In this document: in pieces, positions 25,301-28,300 of the stretch | How the letters are laid out: each line of letters starts with the position of its first letter | How positions within the stretch are numbered: the first letter of the stretch is position 1 | Made by a program: the position numbers | Source of the DNA: Escherichia coli | GTDB taxonomy: Bacteria; Pseudomonadota; Gammaproteobacteria; Enterobacterales; Enterobacteriaceae | Strand: one strand, 5' to 3' | Assembly (NCBI RefSeq): GCF_041886205.1 | Contig: NZ_CP169029.1 | DNA length: 64,000 nt

Positions 25301-28300
25301 GCTGACTTTTCCTAATTGACTGGTCATCAACTGCCGCATCTGTTCCACAGGATGGAGCAACAAAATAAAGCTGGTTCCCTGCGTTTCTATTATCGGTTTA
25401 AGGGTTATCACCGCATCAATAAACTGATGCTGACTTTCAAAGGTTGCTTCTACGTGTTTGAGCGGATGTGCCTGTTTTATTGCTTGTTGCAATACGGCGG
25501 GTAACGTTAAGAGTTCAGTGATTGCCCTTCCCTGACTTGCCGTCGCGTCAAGGCGCAAGACCCGCGCCGCCTGGGCATTAATAAATTGCAAATTACCCTG
25601 CTCGTCCCAGCTAATCACGCCATCATCCATACTTTCTAACAGGGCATTAAGTTGATTTAAATGACGGTTAGTTTCAGCGAGCAAACTGTCCGTCAGCAGT
25701 AAATTACCGACCTCGCGGGCGATTGCCAACGTCAACGGCAAATCAGCTGCGGTAGTTTGCTCAACCGGACACGCCAGCGCTATTGTTCCCGTCAATCGGC
25801 CCTTGCTGTCAAACAACGGCGTTGCACAAAAGGCCCAGTTCCAGAGTGCCTGTTTGAAATGTTGATCGGCCATCGTTTTCACGGCCTGACCAGAGATAGC
25901 CGCTAACGATAGCGCACAAGTACCAATAATTCCCTCGGCGCAATACGTGCCGTCATTGAATCCCAGTGCACTTAGCTGCTGCAAGGTTTGCGGATCGCCA
26001 TTACGGCTGAGAATGCAGGCGGTTTCATCGAGGATAAGCAGCGCACACTCTCGCGGTGCCATATATTCCCAGGCATCTTCCAGCGCAGCCTGACCGAGCG
26101 TCAGCATCGCTTTCTTACGCCGATAAATAGAAGCAAATGTCACGCCCTGGGCCTGATGTGGTACGTTCCATGTCTCCCGTTTCATCAACTTATTGCATCG
26201 CTCCCAGGAGGTTGCAATTAAGGGAGATATGCCCCGACCATCGTTGTTAAAAGCGCCACTCATATCCCGCATCCCTTATGACAAAAGGTGTTCCGGCTCG
26301 CAATTTTAAGTATTAATACACGTAAAAGTTTCAATATGGAACATTCATTAAAGCATATGTTTCACTATGAAACATAATTTGGGCTAATTTTCTTTTCCCT
26401 TGCCTGATGCACAATGGATTCATCGGCAGTCAGTGGTCGCCGTGTCGTTGAACATCATCCATGCCCTACCGTAATTGCTGGAGCAAAATAATGAAAAAAT
26501 TGATCAATGATGTGCAAGACGTACTGGACGAACAACTGGCAGGACTGGCGAAAGCGCATCCATCTCTGACACTGCATCAGGATCCGGTGTATGTCACCCG
26601 AGCTGATGCCCCCGTTGCAGGAAAAGTCGCCCTGCTGTCGGGTGGCGGCAGCGGACACGAGCCGATGCACTGTGGTTATATCGGTCAGGGGATGCTTTCG
26701 GGGGCCTGTCCGGGCGAAATTTTCACCTCACCGACGCCCGATAAAATCTTTGAATGCGCCATGCAAATTGATGGCGGCGAAGGTGTACTGTTGATTATCA
26801 AAAATTACACCGGCGATATTCTTAACTTCGAAACAGCAACCGAGTTACTGCACGATAGCGGCGTAAACGTGACCACTGTGGTCATTGATGACGACGTTGC
26901 AGTAAAAGACAGTCTTTATACCGCCGGGCGACGCGGCGTTGCCAACACCGTATTAATTGAAAAACTCGTAGGCGCAGCGGCCGAGCGTGGCGACTCACTG
27001 GACGCCTGTGCGGAACTGGGGCGTAAGTTGAATAATCAAGGCCACTCAATAGGTATCGCTCTCGGTGCCTGTACCGTTCCTGCCGCGGGCAAACCTTCTT
27101 TTACCCTGGCGGATAATGAGATGGAGTTTGGCGTCGGCATTCATGGTGAGCCGGGTATTGACCGCCGCTCCTTCTCTTCCCTTGATCAAACCGTCGATGA
27201 AATGTTCGACACCCTGCTGGAAAATGGCTCATACCATCGCACTTTGCGTTTCTGGGATTATCAACAAGGCAGTTGGCAGGAAGAACAACAAACCAAACAA
27301 CCGCTCCAGTCTGGCGATCGGGTGATTGCGCTGGTTAACAATCTTGGCGCAACTCCGCTTTCTGAGCTGTACGGCGTCTATAACCGCCTGACCACACGTT
27401 GCCAGCAAGCGGGATTGACTATCGAACGTAATTTAATTGGCGCGTACTGCACCTCACTGGATATGACCGGTTTCTCAATCACCTTACTGAAAGTTGATGA
27501 CGAAACGCTGGCACTCTGGGACGCCCCGGTCCACACCCCGGCCCTTAACTGGGGTAAATAAGGAGAAAGCAATGTCACTGAGCAGAACTCAAATTGTTAA
27601 CTGGCTCACTCGTTGTGGCGATATTTTCAGCACCGAGAGCGAGTATCTTACCGGACTGGATCGCGAAATTGGCGACGCTGACCACGGGCTAAATATGAAC
27701 CGAGGCTTTAGCAAAGTAGTGGAAAAACTCCCTGCTATCGCAGATAAAGATATCGGTTTCATTCTCAAGAATACCGGTATGACGCTGCTTTCCAGCGTCG
27801 GTGGTGCCAGTGGTCCGCTGTTCGGTACCTTCTTTATCCGCGCCGCACAGGCGACCCAGGCACGGCAAAGCCTGACGCTGGAAGAGCTTTATCAGATGTT
27901 CCGCGATGGCGCGGACGGCGTAATCAGTCGCGGGAAAGCCGAACCTGGCGATAAAACCATGTGTGATGTGTGGGTGCCGGTGGTGGAATCGTTACGTCAG
28001 TCCAGCGAGCAAAATCTCTCTGTTCCGGCGGCGCTCGAAGCTGCCAGTAGCATCGCCGAATCCGCTGCACAAAGTACGATTACGATGCAAGCCCGCAAAG
28101 GCCGCGCCAGTTATCTCGGTGAACGCAGTATTGGTCACCAGGATCCCGGCGCGACCTCGGTGATGTTTATGATGCAAATGTTGGCGTTAGCCGCAAAAGA
28201 GTAAGGAATTGGTGATGGTAAACCTGGTCATAGTTTCACATAGCAGCCGACTGGGAGAAGGTGTCGGTGAATTAGCCCGTCAGATGTTAATGAGTGATAG

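What the first reader, a model, noticed from the sequence alone, without database searches (positions are those of the whole stretch)
26357..26375. Perfect palindrome in the dhaR-dhaK divergent promoter
ATGTTTCA-cta-TGAAACAT lies between the divergently transcribed regulator and the dhaKLM operon. It is a natural candidate operator for DhaR, which activates dhaKLM and autoregulates (established knowledge of the system; the site assignment is inference).
Basis: partly seen in the sequence, partly recalled or inferred. Interest (0 to 1): 0.2.

Follow-up and report, generated by a model that had tools for sequence, protein, structure and literature searches.

The report
DhaR operator box at dhaK promoter
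The palindrome is real and is almost certainly one of two adjacent binding sites for the regulator DhaR, which switches on the E. coli dihydroxyacetone kinase genes; it is an ordinary operator in a well-studied system.

Summary
The window is E. coli chromosome. The palindrome exists, with 9-bp arms rather than 8: TATGTTTCA-cta-TGAAACATA, 26356-26376. It is the only perfect 9+3+9 palindrome in 64 kb (0.23 expected).

It is one of two related boxes 31 bp apart; the other has its core at 26328-26342. I compared dhaR loci from about 10 genera with DhaR identity from 97% down to 47%. The core GTTYC-N5-GRAAC always occurs as a pair spaced 31-32 bp: 19 pairs in the 170 kb scanned and a 20th in a locus fetched later, none in shuffles and none in 113 kb of unrelated loci.

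The pairs follow the target promoters (dhaK, gldA, gldA-dhaKLM, dhaB), even where dhaR lies more than 4 kb away. A -10-like hexamer sits at a fixed +44 to +49 from the proximal box (CACAAT, 26410-26415). This puts the boxes near -56 and -87 of a sigma-70-type promoter.

DhaR lacks the GAFTGA loop, and its helix-turn-helix recognition helix is essentially unchanged across all the orthologues.

Readings as an RNA hairpin, a sigma-54 promoter or a YgfI site are not supported. I could not retrieve the published binding study (Bächler 2005), so no direct binding evidence was seen.

The parts
26356..26376 (.). Proximal DhaR box (the finding). The perfect palindrome is TATGTTTCA-cta-TGAAACATA. The conserved core GTTTCACTATGAAAC is at 26359-26373, centred on 26366.
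   Evidence: for the sequence and statistics. for conservation of the core in orthologous loci. for the position matrix.
26326..26344 (.). Distal DhaR box AAGTTTCAATATGGAACAT. The core GTTTCAATATGGAAC is at 26328-26342, centred on 26335, 31 bp from the proximal box.
   Evidence: for the second match in the window. for conservation and the 31-32 bp pairing in every locus.
26386..26396 (+). T-rich block AATTTTCTTTT at +20 to +30 from the proximal box centre. It is the inferred weak -35 region of the DhaR-dependent dhaK promoter.
   Evidence: invariant in Escherichia and Citrobacter; a T-run at the same offset in most of the 18 anchored promoters. It is absent from the 47% orthologue (L042). The -35 role is inferred.
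26410..26415 (+). -10-like hexamer CACAAT at +44 to +49 from the proximal box centre. The inferred dhaK transcription start is near 26422.
   Evidence: an xAxAAT or TAxAGT hexamer at the same offset in 18 promoters. TATGCT at the same offset in L042. TAAGTT at the Shimwellia dhaB promoter. The start site itself is inferred and was not observed.
24344..26263 (-). dhaR, the regulator (639 aa). Domains: GAF, PAS, an AAA+ module lacking GAFTGA, and a C-terminal Fis-type helix-turn-helix at residues 588-627.
   Evidence: The RefSeq start codon is confirmed.
26491..27561 (+). dhaK, the first gene of the regulated dhaKLM operon.
   Evidence: TIGR02363, 519 bits; RefSeq annotation.
27572..29633 (+). 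dhaL and dhaM, the rest of the regulated operon. The dhaL and dhaM start positions are approximate.
   Evidence: DhaL 273 bits, DhaM 813 bits.
26406..26421 (+). Published predicted YgfI/DhfA (LysR-type) site GATGCACAATGGATTC. It is a separate element that overlaps the inferred -10 hexamer, not the palindrome.
   Evidence: (Table S1 of PMC9068703), mapped onto the sequence.

Best explanation
The palindrome is the promoter-proximal box of two DhaR operator boxes in the dhaR-dhaK intergenic region.

Inferred mechanism:
- A DhaR dimer binds each 15-17-bp dyad (GTTYC-N5-GRAAC) through its C-terminal Fis-type helix-turn-helix.
- The two dyads are 31 bp apart, about three helical turns, so both dimers lie on one face of the DNA and can form a higher-order complex.
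- The pair sits at about -56 and -87 from a sigma-70-type dhaK promoter with a weak T-rich -35 region and the -10 hexamer CACAAT. From there DhaR activates dhaKLM when DhaL-ADP replaces DhaK on its sensing domain.
- Occupancy of the same sites presumably also mediates the reported autorepression of the divergent dhaR promoter.

Shown here: the sequence, its conservation, the pairing, the fixed promoter geometry, co-occurrence with dhaR, the missing GAFTGA loop and the conserved recognition helix. Inferred: physical binding by DhaR, the transcription start and the activation contact. The DhaK/DhaL switch and the autorepression come from the literature; the switch is restated.
For: 1. Statistics: it is the only 9+3+9 perfect palindrome in 64 kb against 0.23 expected. 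The only other near match in the window is 31 bp away in the same spacer.

2. Footprinting: both boxes are conserved blocks in alignments of Escherichia and Citrobacter intergenic regions.

3. Pairing: boxes with at most 1 mismatch, spaced 31-32 bp, occur 19 times in 170 kb from 13 sources, and a 20th pair is in L042. There are none in 30 shuffles, none in 112,782 bp of unrelated enhancer-binding-protein loci and none in the rest of the window.

4. Every pair lies upstream of a dihydroxyacetone or glycerol pathway unit: dhaK, gldA, gldA-dhaKLM or dhaB. In Serratia and L042 dhaR is convergent and several kb from the boxes, so the boxes follow the targets rather than dhaR.

5. Geometry: a -10-like hexamer lies at +44 to +49 from the proximal box in 18 anchored promoters, and again in L042 and at Shimwellia dhaB.

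6. Protein: DhaR has a Fis-type helix-turn-helix (HTH_8) at residues 588-627. The recognition helix GRTTLWRK is identical in 10 of 11 orthologues, down to 46% overall identity; the eleventh has one G-to-S change.

7. DhaR lacks GAFTGA and the literature describes it as sigma-70-dependent.

8. Within E. coli the two-box region is present in 5383 of 5426 genomes. The two variants sampled change only spacer or flanking bases.

9. Klebsiella literature reports that DhaR regulates dhaT and dhaB, which fits the extra pair in Shimwellia.
Against: - No direct binding data (gel shift, footprint or ChIP) for DhaR on this sequence could be retrieved. The primary paper is not held and no held paper prints the site.
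- The dhaK transcription start is inferred. The only experimental start found is a weak one (6 reads) from uninduced cells, 318 nt upstream of dhaK inside dhaR.
- A genomic SELEX study predicted a different constitutive dhaK promoter, TTGAAC-16-CGTAAT at 26448-26475. That promoter would put the boxes near -116 and -147.
- Other regulators are reported to bind this spacer: YgfI/DhfA and YneJ/PtrR by ChIP-exo, and NtrC by genomic SELEX.
- Boxes at about -68 and -99 from the predicted dhaR promoter are not a classical repressor position, so the autorepression mechanism stays open.
Confidence: 0.86

Rival explanations
1. The palindrome is the operator of a different transcription factor that also acts on this spacer: the LysR-type YgfI/DhfA or YneJ/PtrR, or cross-binding NtrC.
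For: - ChIP-exo places YgfI and YneJ/PtrR upstream of dhaK.
- Genomic SELEX places an NtrC peak in the dhaK/dhaR spacer.
- The box formally contains the generic LysR T-N11-A pattern (read directly from the sequence).
- In L042 a LysR-type gene lies next to dhaR.
Against: - The published predicted YgfI site is a different sequence about 30 bp downstream, at 26406-26421.
- The authors found no shared PtrR motif among its sites.
- The paired boxes co-occur with dhaR in every genus sampled, and in all but one locus (L042) DhaR is the only regulator encoded in the dha gene cluster.
- The 7+3+7 dyad in tandem copies is the layout I recall for NtrC-family Fis-type helix-turn-helix proteins (recalled, not tested), and DhaR's recognition helix is conserved in parallel with the box.
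Confidence: 0.06
2. The boxes serve mainly as the autorepression operator of the divergent dhaR promoter rather than as the dhaK activation site. This is not exclusive of the best explanation.
For: - DhaR autorepression is part of the published description of the system (recalled from the abstract of Bächler 2005, which I did not re-read here).
- An extended -10-like element TGCTTTAAT lies on the minus strand between the boxes (26353 down to 26345). If it is used, bound DhaR would block it (read directly from the sequence).
- Rahnella has a third box near the dhaR start.
Against: - In Serratia, L042, Pantoea, Klebsiella and Shimwellia the pairs sit in front of dhaK, gldA or dhaB with no dhaR promoter nearby, at a fixed distance from a -10-like hexamer pointing at the target gene.
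- The TGCTTTAAT element is not conserved outside Escherichia.
- The genomic-SELEX-predicted dhaR promoter lies 25-60 bp away from the boxes.
Confidence: 0.25
3. The palindrome forms a nucleic-acid hairpin, acting as a transcript stem-loop, attenuator, terminator or DNA cruciform, rather than as a protein-binding site.
For: It has perfect 9-bp arms and a 3-nt loop in E. coli.
Against: - The stem is not maintained in relatives. Only 2 of 40 boxes have perfect 8-bp arms, and the Y/R position is non-complementary in 26 of 40.
- No terminator-like site was found in the spacer and no Rfam family matches.
- The palindrome lies upstream of both inferred promoters, so it is probably not transcribed (inference).
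- Conservation falls on the half-site bases, not on pairing.
Confidence: 0.02
4. The palindrome is a chance feature of AT-rich intergenic DNA with no function.
For: AT-rich spacers produce short palindromes. Single matches to the degenerate core with at most 1 mismatch are common: 21 in 113 kb of control DNA.
Against: - Expectation for this palindrome in the spacer is about 8e-4.
- The paired arrangement never occurs in shuffles or control DNA.
- The half-sites are conserved down to 47% regulator identity and at paralogous promoters.
Confidence: 0.01

Closest known systems
The E. coli DhaR / dhaKLM regulatory system (Bächler et al. 2005, EMBO J 24:283)
   Same: This is the same locus, regulator and target operon. 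DhaR is an enhancer-binding-protein homologue that works with sigma-70 and lacks GAFTGA. The palindrome lies where an operator for it is expected.
   Different: Nothing differs in kind. I could not check whether that paper, RegulonDB or RegPrecise already lists these two boxes. The motif GTTYCATWATGRAAC, the 31-32 bp pairing and the -56/-87 geometry reported here come from my own comparison, not from those sources.
Tandem upstream activator sites of sigma-54 enhancer-binding proteins (for example the NtrC sites at glnAp2, as I recall them)
   Same: Both have dyad sites of 7+3+7 geometry recognised by a C-terminal Fis-type helix-turn-helix, and two dyads about three helical turns apart that promote assembly of a higher-order complex. 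The NtrC consensus TGCACCA-N3-TGGTGCA and its 32-bp site spacing are recalled from memory, not tested here.
   Different: - No -24/-12 sigma-54 promoter is present.
- DhaR lacks the GAFTGA sigma-54 contact loop.
- The boxes keep a rigid distance to a sigma-70-type -10 hexamer instead of acting at variable distance by DNA looping.
TyrR boxes (TyrR is another sigma-70-dependent enhancer-binding-protein homologue in E. coli)
   Same: The regulator type is the same: an enhancer-binding-protein descendant without sigma-54 contact. Both use palindromic boxes upstream of sigma-70 promoters, often in pairs.
   Different: The TyrR consensus as I recall it is TGTAAA-N6-TTTACA, an 18-bp dyad. The DhaR box is GTTYC-N5-GRAAC, a 15-17-bp dyad, so sequence and spacing both differ.
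The dha regulon of Klebsiella and Citrobacter (dhaB, dhaT, dhaD, dhaK under DhaR)
   Same: The same box pair is found in front of gldA/dhaD-like genes in several genera and in front of dhaB in Shimwellia. This agrees with reports that DhaR regulates dhaT and dhaB.
   Different: E. coli has only the dhaK pair. Its unlinked ptsA-fsaB-gldA operon has no boxes in its intergenic DNA.

Membership tests
DhaR operator (DhaR box) | Lies in the regulatory region of an operon known to be controlled by DhaR | tested here: met
   It lies between dhaR and dhaKLM. Control of dhaKLM by DhaR is taken from the literature.
DhaR operator (DhaR box) | Conserved in orthologous dha loci and co-occurring with dhaR | tested here: met
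   Pairs are present in all 14 sources examined that contain a target promoter, from 97% down to 47% DhaR identity. There are no pairs in control DNA.
DhaR operator (DhaR box) | Dyad symmetry suited to a dimeric helix-turn-helix protein, with a conserved recognition helix in the regulator | tested here: met
   The symmetric matrix is GTTYCATWATGRAAC. DhaR has an HTH_8 domain at residues 588-627. The recognition helix GRTTLWRK is essentially invariant.
DhaR operator (DhaR box) | Physically bound by DhaR (gel shift, footprint or ChIP) | not testable with these tools
   This needs experiment. No held paper reports the site.
DhaR operator (DhaR box) | Agreement with the published DhaR binding or promoter mapping | not tested
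   Bächler 2005 (PMC545809) and Shi 2014 are not held.
Sigma-54 enhancer (upstream activator site of an enhancer-binding protein) | Tandem dyad sites about three helical turns apart | tested here: met
   The spacing is 31-32 bp in all 20 pairs.
Sigma-54 enhancer (upstream activator site of an enhancer-binding protein) | Acts on a -24/-12 (GG-N10-GC) sigma-54 promoter through a GAFTGA-bearing activator | tested here: not met
   The spacer has no credible TGGCAC-N5-TTGCA match: its best match has 3 mismatches, and window-wide counts are below chance. DhaR reads EEFIGGDRTDNENGR where GAFTGA would be.
Sigma-54 enhancer (upstream activator site of an enhancer-binding protein) | Variable distance to the promoter (action by DNA looping) | tested here: not met
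   The distance from the proximal box to the -10-like hexamer is fixed (+44 to +49) across 18 promoters, L042 and Shimwellia dhaB.
TyrR box | Consensus TGTAAA-N6-TTTACA (recalled) | tested here: not met
   The box matrix GTTYC-N5-GRAAC differs in sequence and in dyad length.
LysR-type (YgfI/DhfA) site | Match to the published predicted YgfI motif | tested here: not met
   The published site GATGCACAATGGATTC maps to 26406-26421, not to the palindrome.
Intrinsic terminator or structured RNA | A stem maintained by compensatory change, a T-tract or a match to a known RNA family | tested here: not met
   No terminator-like site, no Rfam match, and non-compensatory variation.

The most novel reading that the evidence does not exclude
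DhaR may have kept the tandem-dyad layout of its sigma-54-activator ancestors (two 17-bp dyads three helical turns apart) while fixing it at a rigid class-I-like position, about -56 and -87, on sigma-70 promoters with a T-rich -35 region. This layout recurs at dhaK, gldA, gldA-dhaKLM and dhaB promoters in about 10 genera. If it has not been described, it gives a defined DhaR regulon motif (GTTYCATWATGRAAC) and a tractable model for how an enhancer-binding AAA+ protein was rewired to contact sigma-70 RNA polymerase directly. The dhaB pair has an activator-type geometry, although DhaR is reported to regulate dhaB negatively in Klebsiella.
Probability: 0.4. Interest if true: 0.3.

Novelty: already known. 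Interest (0 to 1): 0.15.

Why it matters
It matters little beyond annotation. It assigns the E. coli dhaK promoter two DhaR boxes, gives a testable transcription start (about 26422) and a motif for finding DhaR targets in other Enterobacterales. It may interest people who build dihydroxyacetone or glycerol biosensors or engineer 1,3-propanediol strains. It may also interest those studying how enhancer-binding proteins became sigma-70 activators.

Tried and rejected
- **Published footprints.** Bächler 2005 and Shi 2014 could not be retrieved by PubMed id, PMC id or DOI. Nine full-text searches, including a literal search for the sequence, found no paper that prints the operator.
- **Experimental transcription starts.** Kim 2012 lists only a weak start inside dhaR from uninduced cells. 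The supplements of Conway 2014 and the Thomason 2015 paper are not held.
- **Generic sigma-70 promoter scan of the spacer.** No hit, as expected for an activator-dependent promoter.
- **Sigma-54 promoter.** No credible match.
- **Rfam.** Nothing.
- **A conserved 5'-leader hairpin downstream of the inferred start.** MFE z-scores range from -1.6 to +0.9, so none is significant and the idea was dropped.
- **YgfI site identical to the palindrome.** Rejected, because the published site is elsewhere.
- **DhaR boxes at E. coli gldA.** None in the intergenic DNA of ptsA-fsaB-gldA.
- **Boxes upstream of dhaR in the convergent loci (L009, L031).** None. In the corresponding Serratia (L035) and L042 loci the boxes sit at the target promoter instead.

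Full report
**Observation.** The window is E. coli chromosome: the 361 bp around the finding match 5383 of 5426 complete E. coli genomes, mostly at 99% identity or more. The genes are firm. dhaR is at 24344-26263 on the minus strand (NCBIfam DhaR, 1023 bits). dhaK is at 26491-27561, followed by dhaL and dhaM. The sequence ATGTTTCA-cta-TGAAACAT is at 26357-26375 as reported. Complementarity extends one base on each side, giving TATGTTTCA-cta-TGAAACATA at 26356-26376. It is the only perfect 9+3+9 palindrome in the 64 kb, against 0.23 expected, which is about 8e-4 expected for the 218-bp spacer. It is the only other match with 2 or fewer mismatches in the window, and its centre is 31 bp from the first.

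**Literature.** The primary study (Bächler et al. 2005, PMC545809) is not in the held library, and neither is the DhaR structure paper. The papers I could reach confirm three points. DhaR is an enhancer-binding-protein homologue that lacks GAFTGA and acts at a sigma-70 promoter. DhaK and DhaL act as its antagonistic co-regulators. In Klebsiella DhaR also controls dhaT and dhaB. No held paper prints an operator sequence, and a literal sequence search found nothing. Other proteins are reported at this spacer: YgfI/DhfA and YneJ/PtrR by ChIP-exo and NtrC by genomic SELEX. The published predicted YgfI site, GATGCACAATGGATTC, maps to 26406-26421, so it is a different element.

**Comparative test.** I retrieved dhaR loci from other Escherichia (93-97% DhaR identity), Citrobacter (72-73%), Pantoea (68%), Rahnella (71%) and Klebsiella sp. 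(72%). I also retrieved a record labelled Salmonella (71%), Shimwellia (72%), an unnamed 62% orthologue, two Serratia (54-55%) and a 47% orthologue in a record titled Martelella alba.
- In alignments of the Escherichia and Citrobacter spacers, both boxes are conserved blocks.
- The shared core is GTTYC-N5-GRAAC.
- With at most one mismatch, the core occurs as a pair spaced 31-32 bp in every source that contains a target promoter. That is 19 pairs in 170 kb plus one in L042.
- There are no pairs in 30 Markov shuffles, in 112,782 bp of unrelated enhancer-binding-protein loci plus the E. coli gldA region, or in the rest of the window.

**The boxes follow the targets.** In Pantoea, Klebsiella, Shimwellia, the 62% orthologue and the Salmonella-labelled record, a glycerol-dehydrogenase-like gene (Fe-ADH) lies between dhaK and dhaR, and each of the two promoters has its own pair. 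In Serratia and L042, dhaR is convergent and several kb away. The single pair sits upstream of gldA-dhaKLM or dhaK, and there are no boxes next to dhaR. Shimwellia has a third pair in front of the glycerol dehydratase gene dhaB. E. coli's unlinked ptsA-fsaB-gldA operon has none in its intergenic DNA.

**Promoter anatomy.** I anchored 18 promoters on the centre of the proximal box. This shows a T-rich block at +20 to +31 in most of them, and a -10-like hexamer at +44 to +49 in all: CACAAT in E. coli (26410-26415), and GAGAAT, CAGAAT, TACAGT or TATAGT elsewhere. L042 has TATGCT at that offset but no T-run. Shimwellia dhaB has TAAGTT there. By inference the boxes sit at about -56 and -87/-88, and the E. 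coli dhaK start is near 26422. A generic sigma-70 scan finds nothing in the spacer, as expected for a promoter with a poor -35. A genomic SELEX study predicted a different constitutive promoter at 26448-26475. It is conserved only in Escherichia and Citrobacter and may coexist with the inferred one. No experimental start from induced cells was available.

**The regulator.** DhaR has GAF, PAS and AAA+ domains and a C-terminal HTH_8 domain at residues 588-627. Where sigma-54 activators carry GAFTGA it reads EEFIGGDRTDNENGR, and all the orthologues lack the motif too. The recognition helix GRTTLWRK is essentially invariant, with one G-to-S change, even at 46-54% overall identity. This matches the constancy of the box.

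**Rival readings.**
- Hairpin: only 2 of 40 boxes have perfect 8-bp arms, the Y/R position is non-complementary in 26 of 40, no terminator-like site is present and there is no Rfam match.
- Sigma-54 promoter: no credible -24/-12 element.
- Another regulator: not excluded by experiment. The YgfI site is elsewhere, and in all but one locus DhaR is the only regulator encoded in the dha gene cluster.
- Chance: excluded by the pairing statistics.

**Within-species variation.** The 68-bp two-box region is present in 5383 of 5426 E. coli genomes and is identical in 3850 records. The two variants sampled change the central spacer (CTA to CCA), one base flanking the distal box and one inter-box base. 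The half-sites are untouched.

**Verdict.** The palindrome is the proximal box of a pair, and the functional unit is the 5-bp half-site dyad rather than the perfect 9-bp arms. The mechanism of activation (a class-I-like position on a sigma-70 promoter) and of dhaR autorepression is inferred, not shown. This is an ordinary operator in a well-characterised E. coli system, so interest is low. The cross-genus motif and the fixed architecture are a modest by-product.

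Noticed in passing
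window 26421-26453: The block CGGCAGTCAGTGGTCGCCGTGTCGTTGAACA is almost invariant between Escherichia and Citrobacter, more so than neighbouring spacer DNA. It contains the TTGAAC -35 of the genomic-SELEX-predicted promoter. It would lie in the dhaK leader under my promoter model. An RNA fold is not significant. Its function is unexplained.
   Followed up: partly
window 26406-26421: The published predicted YgfI/DhfA (LysR-type) site GATGCACAATGGATTC overlaps the inferred -10 hexamer CACAAT of the DhaR-dependent promoter. That is an odd position for a reported activator.
   Followed up: no
L041 2775-3743 (E. coli O19:H7 strain 730V1); insertion point near window 26442: An IS5-family transposase is inserted between the DhaR boxes and core promoter on one side and dhaK on the other in this strain. 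This probably uncouples dhaKLM from DhaR control.
   Followed up: partly
L008 1088-1134; L033 2610-2656; L034 2452-2498; L036 2567-2613; L037 2541-2587: In several genera a glycerol-dehydrogenase-like gene sits between dhaK and dhaR and has its own pair of DhaR boxes. dhaR follows it closely and may be co-transcribed, which would imply positive rather than negative autoregulation there.
   Followed up: partly
L037 8787-8832: Shimwellia has a third box pair oriented towards the glycerol dehydratase gene dhaB, with the activator-type geometry (T-run, and TAAGTT at +44 to +49). Klebsiella literature says DhaR regulates dhaB negatively.
   Followed up: partly
L032 3938-3952; window 26290-26304: Rahnella has a third, unpaired perfect box, GTTTCATCAGGGAAC, about 56 bp upstream of dhaR. 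E. coli has only a half-site (GTTCCGGCTCGCAAT) at the comparable place, overlapping the predicted dhaR -35 TTGCGA. It might be an autoregulation site.
   Followed up: no
window about 26123-26173 (plus strand, inside dhaR): Kim et al. 2012 list a weak transcription start (6 reads) 318 nt upstream of dhaK, antisense to the dhaR coding sequence.
   Followed up: no
window 26273-26490: An NtrC genomic SELEX peak is reported in the dhaK/dhaR spacer. It could be cross-recognition of the DhaR dyads by a related helix-turn-helix, or binding to the TGCAC half-site at 26408-26412.
   Followed up: no
L010 (431-bp contig of a Neorhizobium tomejilense assembly): A very short, low-coverage contig is 99% identical at the protein level to E. 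coli dhaR. It looks like E. coli contamination of that assembly.
   Followed up: no
L011; protein P0016: Escherichia albertii appears to carry a truncated or rearranged dhaR. Only residues 528-638 match in the locus, and a 527-aa protein covers 46% of the query.
   Followed up: no
window 20663-20688; 7674-7699 and 8210-8235; 18214-18241; 56215-56240: Other long perfect palindromes are present in the window. One is AAAATCCACGCAATTGCGTGGATTTT (13-bp arms, no spacer). Another, GGCCGCAGGGGTAACAGCCTGCGGCC, is duplicated 536 bp apart.
   Followed up: no
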